Assembly: GCA_031835245.2 (NCBI GenBank)
Contig: JAVKOQ020000018.1
Location: forward strand, 62,001 to 126,000
Direction: 5' to 3'
DNA: 64,000 nucleotides
Origin: Balamuthia mandrillaris
Lineage: Eukaryota
Position 1 is the first letter of the stretch. Every line of letters begins with the position of its first letter. The translations under genes and the position numbers were made by a program. Positions 5,279-64,000 of this stretch are shown here, piece by piece. Below the pieces are notes generated by a model that ran no database searches, was not told the origin of the DNA, and saw only the letters and a program-made list of their open reading frames with translations.

Positions 5279-6448
<1,170 letters not shown>

Positions 6449-48560: not shown

Positions 48561-50204
48561 ATGAAGGTGCAGCCGTTGTGGATCGTGCTGGCGGTGGCCA
48601 CCGTGTGGGTGGCCTGGTGGCTGGCCGCGACGGTGCTCCCCATGACCAACCACAAGCACGCACTGACGGTGCATCAAACCCGGCCGGGAAAGGCGTACCT
48701 GCGTAACGCCCAGGGCCTTTGGCTGGCTTACACTCACTCCTGGCTCCCTGCCGACCCTTCCACCGCCCCCAAGTACCGTTCGATCTACTCTGATTTATTT
48801 TTTTGATGAACGATTAACTTCGATTTCTTTTTCAAAAAAAAAAAAAAGAGGAGTGGTTTATGCGGCACACGGCTACTCCGATCACTGCGGGCGGGTGATG
48901 CGCAAGGTGGGCGTCCACCTGAACGAGGCCGGCTACGTGGTGCTCTGCCTGGACATGCAAGGGCATGGCAGGAGTGAGGGGGACCGCGGCTACGTCGAGC
49001 ACTTTGACCACTACATCGAGGAGTACAGCCTCTTCCTGAAGGAGGTCGAGGAGAACTATGCGCCCTACAAGGACCTGCCTCGTTTTCTTTTGGGGTTCCT
49101 CTTTCCTCTCTGCTTCTATGCTTCTCTCTCTCATTCTCTTTCTTCTCTCGTTCTCTCGTTCTCTCGTTCTCTTGCTTCTCTCGTGCTCGTTCTCTATTCT
49201 CTTCTCTCTGCTTCTCTCTGTTTCTCTCGTTCTCTTCTCTCTCCTCTCCTGTCTTCTCTCTTCTCTCCTCCTCTCATTCTCTTTCTTCTCTCGTTATCTT
49301 GCTTCTCTCTGCTTCTCTCGTTCTCTCGTCTCTCGTCTCTCGTCTCTCGTCTCTCGTCTCTCGTCTCTCGTCTCTCGTCTCTCTTCAGTTGAATGACAAC
49401 ATTTGTTTACACAATACAAAAGAGGGTCGATGGGAGGAGCTATCGCCATAGGGCTGGCCAACAGGATGCCCACCTACTTCAACGGCGTTTTGTTGTTGGC
49501 TCCCGCCGTCATTCCGGACCCCAACGTTGCTCTTCCTTGGAAAGTTGCTTTGGGAAGGTTACTATCTCTATTTTTGCTGCCGCTCTTTTCTCTGCTCGCT
49601 TTGCTCCTTGCTTCTTCCCTTCTTTCTGCCTCTTTGCTTCTTCCTTCTCTGTCTCTCTTTCGTTGTTTCATGACAGACTGATAAAGCTCACAAAACAAAG
49701 GATGTTGTCCGACTATTTGCCAAAGCTTCCTATCGGCTATCTTGATCCCTTCACCATGTCACCGGACGTGGATGCTGGTTCGTATCGTTCTAGTTGTTTC
49801 TTCCGCTCTTGTCACTTCTTCGTCCTCTTCCTTCGCCCTCAACCACTGCCGGTGAACTAACGAAAAATGGACTGCCAGTTTATTCCTTCATAGCCGACCC
49901 GTTGACCCACAAAGGCCCCGTCGCCACAAGATGGGGAGCAGCCATTCTGGACCACATGGAGCGGATCAAGGAGGAGGCAACCACCAAGATGACCTATCCC
50001 TTTTGGGTCGCTTTCGGCACGGACGACCGGGTCTGTAACATCGAAGGAGGCTTTTACCTGAGGGACCATGCCGTCAGCAAGGACAAGACGTTGCAGCAGT
50101 ACGAAGGAGGCATGCACGACCTCATCAGCGATCCTAACGTTGGGAAAGAGGTGCTGAAGGACATGCTTCAATGGATGGAGCAACACAGGTCTTCTGCCTC
50201 TTGA
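48561..50204 (+). CDS. Monoacylglycerol lipase / Hydrolase_4 alpha-beta hydrolase, copy 1
   Basis: N-terminal TM; HGYSDH, DMQGHGRSEG, G-G-S-M-G-G elbow across a splice, GTDDRV, YEGGMHDL. Confidence 0.9.
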
Positions 50205-50398
50205 GTTCGCTTCCACCTTATTTATAAACAGTAGACATTTCGTCCATAGAACAAATTCTTGTTCATGTATCGATGGTGGCGTGACGTCAGCAGTGTGCAC
50301 CTCTTTACAGTGATGTCGACAGATTTTAATCACATGCGGCTACTCAAATAAAATCAAACTCTGTCTTATTTTTCTTGAACAACAGGAGAACAAAAGAG

Positions 50399-50987
50399 AT
50401 GAAGGTGCAGCCGTTGTGGATCGTGTTGACGGTGGCCACCGTGTGGGTGGCATGGTGGCTGGCCGCGACGGTGCTCCCCATGACCAACCCCAGACACTCC
50501 TTGACGGTGCATCAAACCCGGCCGGGAAAGGCGTACCTGCGTAACGCCCAGGCCTTTGGCTGGCTTACACTCACTCCTGGCTCCCTGCCGACCCTTCCAC
50601 CGCCCCCAAGTACCGTTCGCCATTGCTCTTGCTCTTTTTCTTTCTAACTCTTGTTCGTTGTTGCCAATGCATGCAGAGGAGTGGTTTACGTGGTGCATGG
50701 CTTTGCGGACCACTGCGGACGTTTGCTGCGGTACTCGGAGGCAGAGTTCAACGAGGCCGGCTACGTGGTGTTGTGCATGGACCTGCAAGGGCATGGCGGA
50801 AGCGAGGGGGATAGAGGTTTTGTGGAAGACGTTGACCACTACATCGAGGAGTACAGCCTCTTCCTGAAGGAGGTCGAGGAGAGCTATGCGCCCTACAAGG
50901 ACCTGCCTCGTTTTCTTTCGGGGTTTCTCTCTTCTCTCTCTCTCTCTCTCTCTCTTTTGTTCTCTCGTCTCTCTTTCTCGTTCTCTT

Positions 50988-51020
<33 letters not shown>

Positions 51021-51883
51021 CTCCTCTTTCCTCCAATGACAAACAAACCAAAAGAGGGTCGATGGGAGGAGCGATCGCCATAGGGCTGGCCAACAGGATG
51101 CCCACGTACTTCAACGGCGTTTTGCTGTTGGCTCCCGCCATCATTCCGGACCCAGCCGTCGCCTCGCCTGCTCTTATCGCTTTAGGACGGTTCGTCTTTT
51201 TGGTTCCCTCTCTGCTGTTGCCCGGCTGTTCTTCCTCTCTGCTTCTCTCCGCTCTTTTGTTCAGCACACTGACCACCGAGAACATTCTCTTTTTTTAATA
51301 ACAATAGATGGATATCGTATTACATGCCAAGGCTTTCCATGGGCCATGTTGACCCCTTCAGATCGTTTGCAAACATCGAAGCGGGTTCGTTTCCTTCTTC
51401 TTGTTATGTTATTGTTCTTCTTGTTCTTCTTGTTCTTCTCCTTCTTGTGCTTTTTCTCCTTTCTGTTTCTCCTTCACTCCTCCTTCTCCTCTTCTTGTCT
51501 CTCGTCTTTCCTACCAAATAACTCACCAGCAACACCACAACAATCCCACAGCTCATTCCTTCATAGCAGATCCGTTAACGTACAAAGGACCTATCGCCAC
51601 GAGATGGGCAGCAGAAGTCATGAGACAAATGGAGCGCATCCAAGAGGAAGCGGCCACCAAGATGACCTATCCCTTTTGGGTGGGATTCGGCACGGCGGAC
51701 AACGTGTGCAGCGTGGAGGGAGGCTTTTACCTGAGGGACCATGCCGTCAGCAAGGACAAGACGTTGCAGCAGTACGAAGGAGGCACGCACGACCTCCTCA
51801 GCGATCCTAACGTTGGGAAAGAGGTGTTGAAGGACATGCTCCAATGGATGGAGCAACACCTCGCTCCTGTCTCCTCGCTCTAA
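50399..51883 (+). CDS. Monoacylglycerol lipase / Hydrolase_4, copy 2 (1-bp deletion in exon 1; pseudogene or assembly error)
   Basis: Near-identical to copy 1 at both ends; CAGGCC at 50549 versus CAGGGCC at 48711. Confidence 0.82.
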
Positions 51884-57238: not shown

Positions 57239-57569
57239 TTATTTTGGAGTCACCTTGGCGAAGAGGGCAGCGAACTGCGATGGGGATGCTGCGCCGGAGA
57301 GGGTGTGCCTGCCGTTGTGAGAAGCAGAACGAAGGAGCAAGCAAGCATGCAAGAAGAACACGAAGACATCAGGGAGCAAGCAAGAAAAATGCAGTGGCGG
57401 CAAACGCACTTATCGTTGATGATGAACAGCGGAACGCCAGTGCATCGCTTGGCTGCTTGCTGCTTTTCCTGCCGTATTACCGCCTCCGCTCCTTCCTCAC
57501 CGCTCAGGTAGGCCGCCACCTGTTTGGCCCTCTCTGTTAGCTCTCGAAGAGAGGAAGAGGCAGAGAGAG

Positions 57570-57604
<35 letters not shown>

Positions 57605-58259
57605 AAGAGAGAGACATCATCGGTCATTCCAACTGCTTTAGCAGCAGCACTGAGCACCTCAATGGCGCCAATGTCCTCCCCTTCCAGCCAGTACTTGCTG
57701 AACAGCACCTCCGCCAAGGGGTCCTGTTTGTCCCGGAGGCCTGCCAGGTGCAACAACCGATGGGCACGAAACGTGTTTGGCATCTTATCGCAGAGCTTCA
57801 GCTCCATCCCTTCGGCCCTGACTGCAAGGAGAATGAACAAACAGAACAGCTGCTCAACAGGAAGAAGAAGAAGAAAGAAAGAAGAACAAGAGGCAAGAAG
57901 AAGAACAGGGCACGCACAGTGCGGCTCAAAGTGACGAGTAACGCGCTCACGGGTGGAGCCCAACCATTCCTGGCAGAAGGGACCCATGTCCACAACTTCC
58001 GGCGGCAGCGAGGGCCGCAGCTCAAACGGAAGCCACCGCACCCTAAACTCCACCTCCCCCGACTCCCGAACGGCCGCCAAGGCCTTCTCCATCCGCCTCT
58101 TCCCTATGAAGCACCACCTCTTCACAAGCTCAGAGAGAGCATAAAACAAAAGCGATATGAAAGAAGCACGTACGGACAAACAGGGTCTGAGAGGATATCG
58201 ATGGTTATTACCACGTTGGGTGCCGCGGCAGCAGAAGAAGAAGAAGAAGAGCCTTCCAT
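57239..58259 (-). CDS. DsbA/FrnE-family oxidoreductase (multi-exon)
   Basis: DILSDPVCP|WCFIGKRR (CPWC across a splice), WLPFELRP, NTFRAHRL, GVPLFIIN. Confidence 0.85.
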
Positions 58260-58370
58260 GATGCGTGGTTGTTCTCACGAGAACTCTCTCCTCTGGCTTG
58301 GTTCACGCGTTAATAACGACTCGGTCCTTTTCGCTGATTTGCGTTACAGTAACAAAGAAGAAAGAAAGAG

Positions 58371-60267
58371 ATGGAGGGAAGAGAACAGCAACAAAGAGAC
58401 AGGTTTCGTGGCTGTTTGTTGGGCTTAGCTGCGGGAGATGCGTTGGGCACCACTTTGGAGTTCTTGAAAGCCGACCCGGATCACCCTCTCACAGACATGG
58501 TTTTTTTTTTTCCCTCTCTTCTTTGCTTCAACCTGATCAGACGTCTGATATGTTGATGGGTGAACGTAAACTGAAACAAAGGTTGGCGGGGGGAAGTACG
58601 CGTTGATGGCTGGACAATGGACGGACGACACTTCCATGGCCCTCTGCCTGGCCGAAAGTTTGATCGAGTGCCGGGGGACGTTTGACCCTTGCGACCAACT
58701 TCGCCGCTACTGTCAATGGTTTCTTTCTCTCTCCTCTATGCTTGTGCTTCTCTTTCTCTCTTTTCTCCTTTACTTTCACCTCTCTTCACCGCTCTCATGC
58801 TCTTTTTATGTTCTCCTTCTTGTGTTACTCCTCTCTCTCTCTTCTATACTTGTCTTGGTGTTGCTCTATGCTTCTCTTTCTCTCCTTCTCTTTAACTTGC
58901 GCTTTCTCTCTCTCTCTCTCTCTCACTTGTCTCGCAAACAAAAGGTACAGGGAAGGTCACCTCAGCAGCAACGGCGAATGCTTCGACATTGGCATAACCA
59001 CCCGCATGAGCATGTTCGAGTTCGAGAAGACCGGCAACCCTTATCCTGCCTCCACGGGAGACAAGGCTCGTGCGGGCAACGGCTCGCTCATGCGTCTTTG
59101 TCCTGTCCCTCTCCTCCTCTTCTTTCTTGCTTCTTCTCCCTCCAACCAGGAAGAACAACGAATGAGGCTGTTGAAGACGGCGGAAGACTCCTCCAGGACG
59201 ACGCACGGAGCGCAAGCCTGTCTGGATGCATGCCGCTTCTATGCAGCTTTGTTGGTGGGAGCGTTACAACCCAACATCACCAAAGAGGAGCTCCTTTCCC
59301 CTTCCTTCTTCTCCTCTTTTCTCTCTTCTTCCACCGAAACAGCCGAGCAAGCGGAACGAAGCAAGTGGTTGACTCTTGTGCCAGAAGTGGAGGAAGTGGC
59401 AAACGGTTCCTACAAGCACAAGGAACCTCCGGAGGAGATCACTGGCAAAGGCTATGTCGTCTCCTCCCTGGAGGCCGCTCTTTGGGCCTTCCACAAGAGC
59501 AACAGCTTCGAGGAAGGAGCCTTGTTGGTGGCCAACCTGGGGGATGATGCCGACACCACCACCGCCATCTACGGCCAGGTGGCCGGGGCGTTCTATGGCG
59601 CGGAGGCCATTCCGGAGGGGTGGAGGAGGAAGCTGGCGTTGGCTCCGTTGATCGAGGCTTTTGCGGATGAGCTTTACTCGCTGTCCCAACAGCTGCGCGA
59701 CGGAGGTTCGTGTCGTGCGCTTCCTTCCTTCTGTCTTCATCTCACTTGTTGTTGCTGTTTGTCTCAGGAGAAGTGGTTCTGTCGGAGAACTACCGGGCCG
59801 CACAAACGTGCTACCAGCTGTTGGAGAAAGGATGGCAACCCATCCAACGTCGCCTCACGCCCGGTCCGCGCATGTACACCAGCGTCACCTCCTTTTTGAA
59901 CGACGAGAGCCAGCTCAAGCAACATTACTTTGAGGCGCTCGCTTCCTCCTCATCGTCCCCTTTCGGAGATGCTCTTTGGCAGGACTTTGAGCATCGTTTT
60001 CGTTATGTGGAACAACAACTTCGAAACAGAACCGGAGAGGTGGTGAAGAAAGAGGAAGCGGAGCCTTCAACCGCTTCTTCTTTTCTTCCTCCCCCTCCTC
60101 CTGCTCCGCTTGCGCCTCCTCCGCTTCCGTTGATGAAGGATGGCGAGAAAGAAAAGGAAGAAGGGCGAGGACAGCTGCTGAGCGCTATCCAGGCGTTCAG
60201 CAAAGCCGGTCTCAGCAAAACGGAAACAAAAGATAAAAGCGGACTCATTCTTCCTGAAGACAATTAA
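58371..60267 (+). CDS. ADP-ribosylglycohydrolase (DraG/Tri1/ARH family) with C-terminal poly-Pro and WH2 motif
   Basis: [64 protein letters not shown]; in-frame splice 59706-59767 to tail ending PPPPPAP...[25 protein letters not shown]. Confidence 0.88.
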
Positions 60268-60749
60268 CATGTTTATGTAAATCAACACAAAATGAAAGGA
60301 AAGAGAGAGGATGTGGCACCAAAGTCTTTATAATCCTTGAGGCATTGGAGGGAGAGAAGAAGCAAAGAACTCCTTCTCCCCATCCTTAGAAAAAAACCAA
60401 GAATTCAGAATGACTGGCCTTATAAGTGTTTCAATATCCCCAAAACTAATAGCCCTCATCTTTGTAGGATGCTAAAAGCACAAAGATGGAGTTAATTGTC
60501 ATAATTGGGGGGTTGTTGAATGAAGAAGAGAAAGAAGTTCTTCTTTTTCAATCCCAAAAGATGGGTTAAAAAAACGGTTTTGAAGGCAAAGCTTTTCGCT
60601 CTGATTTTCGATTGTGGGAAACAAAATGAAAAGAAAAGAGAAGTGGAAACAGAAACAAGAAACAAGAAACAAGACAACAACAAACAACAAAATACGAGAC
60701 AAGGGAAGGAAGGAAGAAAGAGGATGACCCAAATATCAATGTTGGTAGT

Positions 60750-61898
60750 TTAAATAACGAAAGGAACAAGGATCCTTCGGTTGCGGGGGTAGTCACGGAA
60801 CTCCCTGAGGTAGGCCTTGTGCTTGCCTACAGCCCACACCCACATCTGACCAGCTCCCACCAAAGTGAAGAACACCGCTAATAAAGAGAACGAGAAATGA
60901 AAAAACAGGAGAGAAAAAGAAAAGGAGATTAAGAGAAAGGAGTAGGACACAAAAGAAACAATGAATAAACTGCACAATAATAAGCAAAAGAAAAGCATAC
61001 CAGCAAGCGTTTGAGTCATGATGCTGAAGGAGATCCATGCGGCAATCTCACAGGTGTAATTGGGGCAAGAGACAAACTCGAAGAGGAAGCCACGTGGGAT
61101 AGCCCTCACTCTTGTGCCTGGTGGCCTCAAGTTGCGGAGGATTATGTGGCAGTACAAGTTACCTAACTCAAACAACTAAAGGTAGGATAAACGAAAGATC
61201 AGAAGATTCGGTTTAAACAAAATAAAAAATAAGCACACCATGCGATAAACATGACAAATAAAACAAAACATTACAAATACAAACACAAACACAAACACAA
61301 ACAGCAAAGGCAAGGCAAACGTAAAACACAAGGAAGAGAACGGATTCACGTACAACGAAGCAAGCGAGGCCAGCATAAAACTGAGTGGAAGAGGGAGGAG
61401 TGTAGAGAGGGTGGTTCACAAAGTAGCCGACCAAGGCACCAGCACCCCAATAATAACCGCTGTTCTTGAAGATGTTGAGCAGCGGCATTGTGCCCTTGCT
61501 GAAGCGATGCACAAAGATGGTCTCCAACTCACGTTTCAGGTAGTGACCGACCCAACAAGCACATGCCACTCTTTAAAGGAAAAGGAATAATACCAGGATA
61601 AGAATATGTAAAAGAACGAAGAAGATGAAGAAAAGAACAAGAAGAACAACGAAGAAGGCAAGCAGAAGCAGAAAAAGAAAGAACATAGAATAAACAAAGG
61701 AAAAAACAGTACTGGGCTTCAAAGGTCATGGGGGTAGAGGCCAGGTCGCCATAAACGAACCAAGGGCGCAAGTAGAAGAACAAGTAGATGAGCAACGGGC
61801 CGGCGTACTCCACCATGAACACCTTTTTTTTGTTTTTGGGAGGAGAAAACACATAGAAGCGTTACCATTATGTTTTACGAAACTAAGAAGAGACAGAA

Positions 61899-62699: not shown

Positions 62700-63000
62700 C
62701 CGTAACTTGCCTTATAAAGGTTACTCATTTAACCCGGTCAAACTTTTCAAATATTTTTCAGTTAATCCAAAACTATCGATGAAAATATCTTTGCTGACCA
62801 CTGCTCCTAAGGCGGCGCCAAGATCAAGCCGATCCATGGGACAACGAAAATAAAGCAAAATTAGTAAAAGGAAAACAAAAAACAGAGAAACAAAAAATAA
62901 CCCACCTCCGGCGTGCCTAATCACGGCTTGTCTTACGACTCGCTATAAGCAACGGTGCCGGCACCAAAGCAACCTTACCGCCTACCGCCCCCTCACAGAG
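62700..63000 (-). ncRNA. Candidate Fanzor omegaRNA scaffold
   Basis: Directly 3' of and overlapping the Fanzor stop; nested complementary pairs 62978-62983/62810-62815 and 62924-62930/62825-62831, plus small hairpins including GUC-GUAA-GAC; boundaries are inferred. Confidence 0.5.
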
Positions 63001-64000
63001 GAGGAGGAGGAGGTGGTAAGTGCTTGCAACGTAAAAAAGCGGATCAAGATGTTTCGGGCGGCGTTGGCATCTCGATCCGCCTGGTAGCCACACTCGGGTT
63101 GAGGGCACCGAAAGGTCTTGTTTCCCCCCAACTGGTGGTGGACTTGGCCGCACTTGCCGCAGGTCTTGCACTTGCCGCAGGTCTTGGAGGTGTATTCCTC
63201 ATCGCAGAGGCAGACCGTACAGGACGGAAATTGCTGGGCCTTGTTGAGGAGCCTCTGCCTGAAGCGATAGTGGGACCAGGTCAGCATGGCTCTGGCCGTT
63301 CGCGAGCCAATGCGGCGGTGGCCTCGCCGCACCATCTGCTGGCTCCTGAACTCTGGCAGAAGGATGAGGGAGAAGTTCCTGACCAACCAAAACACGAGCT
63401 TCTTGTGGAGGTCATCCACCAGGTTGCGGATCCTCTGGCGAAGCCGAGCAGCGGCCCTTCGGAGACGGCGCCGTTGCCTGTGGTTGCCCTTGGTGCCCTT
63501 ACTCTGCATGCGATCCAGGCGGTGGCACAGCTTGCCTATCTCGTTGATGTCCGCTTTGCCCCACTCGGTGACCTCCCCGCAGCCGTTGTAGGTGGTCATG
63601 AATGTGCGCACTCCTGGATCCAAGGCGATGATGCCTGCCTCTCTCCTTCGGTGCTCACGGGCTTGGCTCTCACCCATGAGCTTCAAAGGCTGAGGCACAC
63701 AGAGGTAGTAATGGCCCAGTCGAGTGTCTTTCACCAGACGAACGGCATAGAGCACCTCCGACGGAACTTTGTAGTTCTTGTCCCTCGCTTTGATTCGCGC
63801 CTCCCCGAAGAAGAGTTGGCGGATGGACTTGCTGTGGTTCCACTCCCTGGCTTGGATGCTGAGAGACTGGCTCTTGTCCTTCCGACCACGGAACTTCATC
63901 TTGAATCCAGTCCTGCCCGCCGCCAAGCTGGTTTTCACGCCGTTGAAGAAATCATCGACAGCGTCACTGCGAATGTATCGAGGAGTTTCCAACACCCACG
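62982..64000 (-). CDS. Fanzor2 / IS607-TnpB-family RNA-guided endonuclease (5'-truncated by window edge)
   Basis: ETPRYIRSDAVDDF...FKMKFRGRK; RuvC-I IALDPGVRTF; bridge helix RLRQRIRNLVDDLHKK; LILLPEF; WSHYRFRQRL; DEEYTSKTCGKC...FRCPQPECG zinc finger; RuvC-III DRDANAARNI; frame open to the window end. Confidence 0.93.
   Translation of the reverse strand, partial: WVLETPRYIRSDAVDDFFNGVKTSLAAGRTGFKMKFRGRKDKSQSLSIQAREWNHSKSIRQLFFGEARIKARDKNYKVPSEVLYAVRLVKDTRLGHYYLCVPQPLKLMGESQAREHRRREAGIIALDPGVRTFMTTYNGCGEVTEWGKADINEIGKLCHRLDRMQSKGTKGNHRQRRRLRRAAARLRQRIRNLVDDLHKKLVFWLVRNFSLILLPEFRSQQMVRRGHRRIGSRTARAMLTWSHYRFRQRLLNKAQQFPSCTVCLCDEEYTSKTCGKCKTCGKCGQVHHQLGGNKTFRCPQPECGYQADRDANAARNILIRFFTLQALTTSSSSSVRGR

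What the first reader, a model, noticed from the sequence alone, without database searches (positions are those of the whole stretch)
58371..60267. ADP-ribosylhydrolase fused to a poly-proline + WH2 actin-binding tail
Seen: a complete DraG/Tri1/ARH-type domain with metal-binding TDDT and DADT motifs. It is spliced in frame to a helical segment, then [14 protein letters not shown] and [21 protein letters not shown], which fits the WH2/thymosin helix + LKKT(ET) pattern. Established: WH2 binds G-actin, poly-Pro binds profilin, and bacterial toxins (C2/iota/SpvB, TccC3) ADP-ribosylate actin. Inference: an actin-targeted eraser that could protect a bacterivorous amoeba from actin-ADP-ribosylating toxins, or reverse endogenous actin modification. 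I do not recall this architecture being characterised.
Basis: partly seen in the sequence, partly recalled or inferred. Interest (0 to 1): 0.72.

Follow-up and report, generated by a model that had tools for sequence, protein, structure and literature searches.

The report
Amoeba ADP-ribose eraser with actin grip
This is a real amoeba gene, also present in Acanthamoeba, that joins a bacterial-type enzyme predicted to strip ADP-ribose from proteins to a short motif that likely grips actin, so it would be a repair enzyme for actin poisoned by bacterial toxins, although neither binding nor activity has been measured.

Summary
Four exons give a 508-residue protein (NCBI KAL6075657.1, Balamuthia mandrillaris) with an ADP-ribosylhydrolase domain, all DraG/Tri1 catalytic residues, and a Pfam WH2 motif above cut-off. 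New here: the 'helical segment' is an unnamed three-helix domain shared by 69 protein clusters, and all 8 that carry an organism name are amoebae. The WH2 is conserved in Acanthamoeba castellanii (37 bits), hidden in a 105-residue fragment misnamed 'GRAM domain containing protein', and in one environmental relative. Most family members lack it. The poly-proline run is absent in Acanthamoeba, so it is not a core part. The last splice junction is supported by homology but was not bridged by RNA. Best reading (0.45): WH2 tethers the enzyme to actin so that it removes arginine-linked ADP-ribose (Arg177) put there by bacterial toxins. Rivals: a cytoskeleton address tag for other substrates, or a partner of the amoeba's own ADP-ribose writers. 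Three literature searches on this architecture did not turn up a description, and the scan had not noted it elsewhere. New variant of a known kind.

The parts
58371..58499 (+). Exon 1: start codon and first helix of the hydrolase, with E30
58500..58581 (+). Intron 1 (82 bases, GT..AG)
   Evidence: spliced out in one contig of run X9
58582..58718 (+). Exon 2: metal-binding T57-D58-D59
58719..58944 (+). Intron 2 (226 bases, GT..AG)
   Evidence: exon edges agree with the GenBank protein; no RNA joint listed
58945..59705 (+). Exon 3: rest of the hydrolase (D103, N134, H176, D290, D292, T293)
59706..59767 (+). Intron 3 (62 bases, GT..AG); if kept, the frame stops at 59899 without the tail
   Evidence: homologues continuous across it; not bridged by RNA
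59768..60267 (+). Exon 4: three-helix domain, linker, poly-proline, WH2, stop
59785..60033 (+). Unnamed three-helix domain (residues 349-431) with a conserved P-G-P turn; marks the amoeba family
   Evidence: (pLDDT 90)
60088..60129 (+). Poly-proline run (residues 450-463) in a disordered linker; likely profilin or SH3 site; not conserved in Acanthamoeba
60160..60243 (+). WH2 motif (residues 474-501): predicted helix 474-489, then LSKT and a T-x-D-K-S extension

Best explanation
The gene encodes a bacterial-type ADP-ribosylhydrolase fused to a three-helix domain and a WH2 motif, which likely binds actin and would hold the enzyme on it so that it removes arginine-linked ADP-ribose (probably at Arg177) added by bacterial toxins. 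Shown: gene structure, domain order, intact catalytic residues, conservation of the WH2 in Acanthamoeba. Inferred: step 1, the WH2 helix binds the cleft between actin subdomains 1 and 3 on a modified monomer or a capped barbed end; step 2, the two-metal site cleaves the arginine bond as in DraG and Tri1; step 3, the freed actin polymerises again and the barbed-end block is lifted. The three-helix domain is probably a spacer or substrate guide; the poly-proline run, where present, probably adds a route through profilin.
For: Catalytic residues: 8 of 11 checked sites invariant in 17 of 17 near-full-length family proteins, E30 and T293 in 16 of 17; they align with DraG, including the position of the D97N change in 2woe (through P0002) and with Tri1. 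Nearest characterised relatives are arginine-specific: Tri1 E 2.6e-57, 37% identity, rmsd 2.2, against human ARH3 E about 1e-13 (specificity). WH2 above the Pfam cut-off in Balamuthia and in Acanthamoeba (27.6 and 37 bits); the two motifs align without gaps over 31 residues, 0 of 5000 shuffles as good; P0002 also matches, 0 of 5000. The window's own actin has Arg177 and Thr148. Passages read: many toxins modify Arg177 and the product blocks barbed ends; SpvB modifies actin in Acanthamoeba rhysodes (review).
Against: No binding or activity data exist. Only 2 of 69 family rows reach the Pfam WH2 cut-off and one more is similar (many rows are fragments, so this is a lower bound); the other tails show no general WH2 likeness (5 of 67 at or under 5% of shuffles, mean z 0.06), so the core enzyme works without it. 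The protein is below the NCBIfam cut-offs for Tri1 and DraG, and its very closest solved relative (2cwc) has no substrate stated in the entry, so arginine specificity is inferred. The same fold also cleaves serine linkages and other substrates. Acanthamoeba has PARP-like writers with actin or actin-binding domains, which offers a non-toxin reason for an actin-bound eraser. Expression in the RNA runs laid was very low.
Confidence: 0.45

Rival explanations
1. The WH2 binds actin but is only an address tag: it brings a general eraser to the cell cortex or the phagocytic cup, where the real substrates are other ADP-ribosylated proteins (small GTPases, adaptors).
For: Most family members lack WH2 yet keep the enzyme and three-helix domain, so the ancestral substrate need not be actin. 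Arginine-modifying toxins also hit non-actin targets such as CRK adaptors. The Balamuthia linker is 44 residues and disordered.
Against: In Acanthamoeba the linker is only 8 residues, which would hold the enzyme close to the bound actin itself. Actin is the best documented ADP-ribosylation target in an amoeba in the papers read.
Confidence: 0.27
2. It reverses ADP-ribosylation made by the amoeba's own enzymes on actin or actin-bound proteins, as part of normal control of the cytoskeleton, not defence.
For: PARP4-like proteins of A. castellanii carry actin or actin-binding domains (PMC4245714 section 3.1.2). A rat-brain enzyme that ADP-ribosylates actin and a hydrolase for it are cited in a review.
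Against: PARPs usually modify acidic residues or serine, not arginine, while this enzyme is closer to arginine-specific ones. No amoebal writer was searched for: no genome is held.
Confidence: 0.18
3. The tail is a decayed or chance WH2 look-alike, or is rarely included because intron 3 is kept, and the protein is an ordinary ADP-ribose clean-up enzyme.
For: No RNA joint over intron 3. The Balamuthia motif reads LSKT, not LKKT. P0002 has no Pfam WH2 hit and the Pellita end is not significant (424 and 2313 of 5000 shuffles). No solved WH2 was matched by sequence.
Against: Two genera score above the Pfam cut-off and share 31 aligned residues while the linker before it has diverged entirely. Keeping intron 3 would remove the three-helix domain that the whole family has.
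Confidence: 0.1

Closest known systems
Tri1 (Serratia proteamaculans, PDB 6dre; NCBIfam NF041672) and Imm-ARG immunity proteins
   Same: Same fold and catalytic residues (37% identity, rmsd 2.2); enzymatic protection against an arginine ADP-ribosylating toxin.
   Different: Tri1 is bacterial, sits beside its toxin and blocks it with an N-terminal extension. This protein is eukaryotic, lacks the first 60 positions of the Tri1 model, scores 277 against a cut-off of 490 and carries a likely target-binding tail instead.
DraG (Rhodospirillum rubrum, PDB 2woc; TIGR02662)
   Same: E-D-D catalytic set and two-metal site conserved.
   Different: 27% identity, 128 bits against a cut-off of 337; the GenBank name 'dinitrogen reductase glycohydrolase' is an over-transfer.
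Stand-alone bacterial ADP-ribosylglycohydrolases (PF03747; Thermus 2cwc)
   Same: 55-61% identity over the hydrolase domain to many 305-330-residue proteins, the named ones bacterial.
   Different: They end where the three-helix domain starts and fall on the other side of a 98/90 branch.
Vertebrate ARH1 (ADPRH), ADPRHL1 and the rat-brain 'ADP-ribosylactin hydrolase'
   Same: ARH-family link to actin has been proposed: ADPRHL1 acts on muscle actin assembly and ARH1 is speculated to free actin from toxin modification; an actin hydrolase from rat brain is cited (title only).
   Different: Distant in sequence (ARH1 absent at E 0.001); ADPRHL1 is catalytically dead; no WH2 is mentioned for any of them in the passages read.
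WH2 proteins with poly-proline (WASP/WAVE, CAP, BimA)
   Same: Proline-rich stretch followed by WH2.
   Different: Single WH2, no acidic tryptophan end after it, so not an Arp2/3 activator or tandem nucleator; the partner domain is an enzyme.

Membership tests
ADP-ribosylglycohydrolase (PF03747, DraG/ARH fold) | Pfam score above cut-off over the whole domain | tested here: met
   237 bits against 26.2, model positions 1-286 of 287
ADP-ribosylglycohydrolase (PF03747, DraG/ARH fold) | All-helical ARH fold | tested here: met
   AlphaFold2 model pLDDT 83; Foldseek 2yzw, 6dre, 2woc at probability 1.00
ADP-ribosylglycohydrolase (PF03747, DraG/ARH fold) | Two-metal and catalytic residues (E, TDD, D, DxDT, TH) | tested here: met
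   E30, T57, D58, D59, D103, H176, D290, D292, T293 present and conserved
Arginine-specific hydrolases (Tri1, DraG, ARH1) | Hydrolysis of arginine-linked ADP-ribose | not testable with these tools
   Inferred from nearest characterised relatives only
Tri1 equivalog (NF041672) | Score above curated cut-off and toxin-blocking N-terminal extension | tested here: not met
   277 against 490; match starts at model position 62
DraG equivalog (TIGR02662) | Score above curated cut-off | tested here: not met
   128 against 337
WH2 motif (PF02205) | Pfam score above cut-off | tested here: met
   27.6 bits (29.2 on the exon alone) against 23.1; Acanthamoeba 37 bits
WH2 motif (PF02205) | Short helix with exposed hydrophobic residues, then an LKKT-like stretch (LKKT label recalled) | tested here: met
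   Predicted helix 474-489 at low confidence (block pLDDT about 50-55); LSKT here, LKKA in Acanthamoeba; helix definition
WH2 motif (PF02205) | Binds actin | not testable with these tools
   No complex model was obtained and no binding data exist
WASP/WAVE-type Arp2/3 activators | Central and acidic segments with a terminal tryptophan after WH2 (definition recalled) | tested here: not met
   No tryptophan and at most 3 acidic residues in the last 12 in P0001, P0184, P0002
RPEL actin-binding motif (for the R-P ending of family members without WH2) | Profile match to RPEL | tested here: inconclusive
   No RPEL among the 25 of 38 Pfam families shown for 26 members, none in the PDB profile search; short motifs can fall under HMMER's filters

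The most novel reading that the evidence does not exclude
Acanthamoeba and its kin carry a dedicated anti-toxin enzyme: a bacterial immunity-type hydrolase, taken up by amoebae long ago and later fitted with a eukaryotic actin-binding motif, that finds toxin-modified actin and repairs it. It would be a eukaryotic counterpart of Tri1 aimed at the target rather than at the toxin, and the wider three-helix family in Amoebozoa and Heterolobosea would be its untargeted ancestor.
Probability: 0.35. Interest if true: 0.82.

Novelty: new variant of a known kind. Interest (0 to 1): 0.62.

Why it matters
Amoebae are the natural hosts against which many bacterial actin toxins are thought to have been selected, and the papers read describe the attack but no amoebal repair enzyme. 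A target-tethered eraser would be a direct counter-measure and a ready tool for reversing Arg177 modification. Because the orthologue exists in the laboratory amoeba A. castellanii, where the annotation hides it as a misnamed fragment, the idea can be tested at once. The unnamed three-helix domain also marks an amoeba-wide enzyme family that was not found in the literature searched.

Tried and rejected
No whole genome is held, so paralogues and amoebal writers were not searched. No RNA holder was listed; this says nothing on expression. Word-based searches with exon 4 found only the protein itself and with the helical profile 7 proteins; only the full HMM search opened the family. Three of its 67 hits (P0126, P0176, P0179) were dropped as unrelated repeat proteins. 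A degenerate DNA pattern for the P-G-P motif gave 3 metagenome matches, all unrelated. The three-helix domain has no specific structural match: Foldseek nothing at E 0.001 or better, VIA-align best Z 8.3 (rmsd 3.7, 80 aligned) among generic bundles, Atlas nothing usable; this does not show a new fold. Atlas with P0002 gave only plain PF03747 clusters under 0.9. PDB sequence searches with exon 4 and with P0184 matched no solved WH2. No model of the tail with actin was obtained, so that question is open. The idea that all family tails are degenerate WH2 motifs was not supported. The Pellita end looked like half a WH2 but is not significant. An RPEL likeness of the R-P ending (recalled) found no support; [RK]P occurs in the last 30 residues of 31 of 69 rows against a shuffle mean of 19.7, maximum 29. 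Rfam gave nothing at gathering level in 58000-61000. Earlier findings: none on this architecture. PMC427739 was not held.

Full report
Observation. The region holds a four-exon gene on the + strand: 58371-58499, 58582-58718, 58945-59705, 59768-60267. The introns (82, 226, 62 bases) are GT..AG and pyrimidine-rich, and the joined frame gives 508 residues. A public protein with this sequence exists, KAL6075657.1 of Balamuthia mandrillaris, named after DraG; it may come from this same assembly, so it is not independent support. Pfam finds ADP_ribosyl_GH at 14-313 (237 bits) and WH2 at 474-501 (27.6 bits, cut-off 23.1). AlphaFold2 gives a confident hydrolase and three further helices (349-370, 382-401, 407-431), a disordered linker (437-474) and a low-confidence helix at 474-489.

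The critical junction. If intron 3 were kept, the frame would stop at 59899. RNA evidence is thin. No holder was on record as RNA. Of four runs laid, three raw-read runs gave mean depths of 0 to about 3 over the gene and no listed splice joint; the fourth, X9, whose RNA status is a guess, has intron 1 spliced out and a contig that starts at 59766, at the intron 3 acceptor, but nothing listed that bridges it (3 pieces were not shown). Homology is stronger: relatives pass directly from the hydrolase into the same helical domain, and that domain, the proline run and the WH2 share one exon.

The enzyme. By sequence and by fold the nearest solved proteins are Thermus 2cwc, Serratia Tri1 (E 2.6e-57; 37% identity, rmsd 2.2), Listeria Lmo0067 and DraG; human ARH3 is far behind (E about 1e-13). 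It is under the NCBIfam cut-offs for Tri1 and DraG, so it is neither. The residues E30, T57, D58, D59, D103, N134, H176, D290, D292 and T293 match the DraG and Tri1 sites. Among 17 near-full-length family proteins, 8 of 11 checked sites are invariant, E30 and T293 are kept in 16, and Y259 varies. DraG and Tri1 act on arginine-linked ADP-ribose (PMC8120803, passages); ARH3 acts on serine (PMC6309922, passages); a wider substrate range for the superfamily is suspected (PMC9503650, passages). Arginine specificity is therefore likely, not shown.

The family. A profile of the helical domain alone found 67 clusters among 1.84 billion representatives. Three were dropped as unrelated repeat proteins. 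Of the other 64, 40 show a hydrolase match; the 24 without one are all fragments of 172 residues or fewer. With the earlier hits the set is 69 rows, 64 with a P-G-P-like turn. Of 27 proteins looked up, 8 carry an organism name: Balamuthia, Pellita, Acanthamoeba, Acrasis, Pelomyxa, Rhizamoeba, Willaertia and Mastigella. All are amoebae of Amoebozoa or Heterolobosea (classification from my own knowledge). On the hydrolase domain alone, 7 family proteins fall on one side of a 98/90 branch against 38 of the 113 bacterial-type rows (every third). Identity of 55-61% to bacterial-type proteins suggests a transfer from bacteria, but the tree has no independent root and the direction was not tested. 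The three-helix domain folds confidently (pLDDT 90) and has no Pfam family or specific structural match.

The WH2 is conserved, but only in one branch. P0184 is A. castellanii ELR14823.1, a 105-residue fragment named 'GRAM domain containing protein'. It holds the end of the three-helix domain and a WH2 of 37 bits. Unnamed exon-like fragments P0139 and P0190 share 31 identical residues with it and continue back into the last helix of the hydrolase, so the Acanthamoeba gene very likely has the full architecture. The Balamuthia and Acanthamoeba motifs align over 31 residues without gaps (0 of 5000 shuffles), and the environmental protein P0002, which is 57% identical to the query, ends in poly-proline plus a shorter related motif (0 of 5000 against each) that Pfam does not score. 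A genomic-looking member of its cluster breaks off at the same place as P0139 does, which suggests an intron-bearing relative of Acanthamoeba. In a quick tree of 32 rows, Balamuthia, Pellita, P0002, P0003 and P0190 group together with moderate support (86, not starred; P0190 fills only 30% of columns). Against generality: only 2 of 69 rows pass the Pfam WH2 cut-off, the other tails show no likeness to the two WH2 motifs as a set (5 of 67 at or under 5%, mean z 0.06), and Pellita's end is not significant. Many end instead in a short R-P...KK stretch (34 of 69 end in a basic pair against 11 of 113 bacterial-type rows) of unknown role. Poly-proline occurs in 2 of 69 rows; the linker is 44, 29 and 8 residues in Balamuthia, P0002 and Acanthamoeba.

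Mechanism. WH2 is a helix that binds the cleft between actin subdomains 1 and 3 (PMC10381072, passages) and can engage monomers and barbed ends (PMC10638096, passages). Many bacterial toxins modify monomeric actin at Arg177; the product caps barbed ends and filaments collapse (PMC7390403, PMC9266650, PMC10638096, passages). A review states that SpvB modifies actin in Acanthamoeba rhysodes and triggers its degradation (PMC8402458, passages; the primary papers were not seen). An actin gene in this window has Arg177 and Thr148. The simplest joint reading is a tethered eraser: grip actin at the cleft, cut the arginine bond, return the monomer. Thr148, the TccC3 site, lies beside the cleft and its modification is expected to weaken WH2 binding, so that substrate is unlikely. 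No complex model was obtained. I put WH2-actin binding at about 0.85 to 0.9 and the full toxin-repair reading at 0.45. Rivals are an address tag for other substrates (0.27; toxins also hit CRK adaptors, PMC9787417, passages), service to the amoeba's own writers (0.18; A. castellanii PARP4-like proteins carry actin or actin-binding domains, PMC4245714 section 3.1.2 read whole) and a non-functional tail (0.10).

What is known. Enzymatic immunity by this fold is known in bacteria (Tri1; Imm-ARG, PMC3482391, passages). A link of vertebrate ARH proteins to actin has been proposed, and a rat-brain ADP-ribosylactin hydrolase is cited by title. A survey of ARH domain fusions names zinc-finger and WD40 additions and has no occurrence of WH2 in its main text. 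Full-text searches for ADP-ribosylhydrolase + WH2 + actin and for ADP-ribosylglycohydrolase + WH2 gave 0 papers; WH2 + Acanthamoeba + ADP-ribosyl gave 12, none of the 9 listed on this protein by title or abstract; the Balamuthia annotation paper does not contain the terms. The library is open-licence only, and supplements were not read; those of PMC4245714 and PMC9503650 could list this architecture. The scan's own notes hold nothing on it.

Verdict. A real, conserved and apparently undescribed architecture within a known enzyme family: new variant of a known kind, interest 0.62. The function is a well-grounded prediction and can be tested in A. castellanii.

Noticed in passing
window 60320-60497: Just past the stop codon, RNA reads pile up (summed depth roughly 35-130 against 0-3 over the gene) in three runs, in both mate directions, with sharp ends and many variant letters; likely a multi-copy transcribed element. 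No Rfam match at gathering level, no second copy in the window, fold z-score -1.3.
   Followed up: partly
window 62985-63998 (-): TnpB/Fanzor-like open frame with Pfam Cas12f1-like_TNB and OrfB_IS605 hits, cut by the window's end.
   Followed up: partly
window 5282-6406 (-): Intronless conventional actin of 375 residues with Arg177 and Thr148.
   Followed up: yes
A. castellanii ELR14823.1 (P0184): Named 'GRAM domain containing protein', but the only Pfam hit is WH2; it looks like the cut-off end of the orthologue of this gene.
   Followed up: yes
C-termini of family members without WH2 (alignment A5): Many end in L-x-R-P, a few hydrophobic residues and KK; several others end in LKK/LKS/LRS-type words. 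Role unknown; resemblance to RPEL or to half a WH2 is recalled and was not supported.
   Followed up: partly
L004-L017: All 12 viral-contig actins aligned keep Arg177 and Thr148.
   Followed up: no
P0005, P0007, P0016-P0023 and others: Many close bacterial-type hydrolases are fused to a second hydrolase or to phosphatase-like domains, as described for predicted anti-phage systems in PMC9503650.
   Followed up: no
window 48667-51880 (+): Two tandem copies of a serine aminopeptidase S33 (Hydrolase_4) gene.
   Followed up: no
window 57253-58302 (-): A DSBA-like thioredoxin gene lies head to head with the hydrolase gene with very little spacer; one X9 contig spans both.
   Followed up: no
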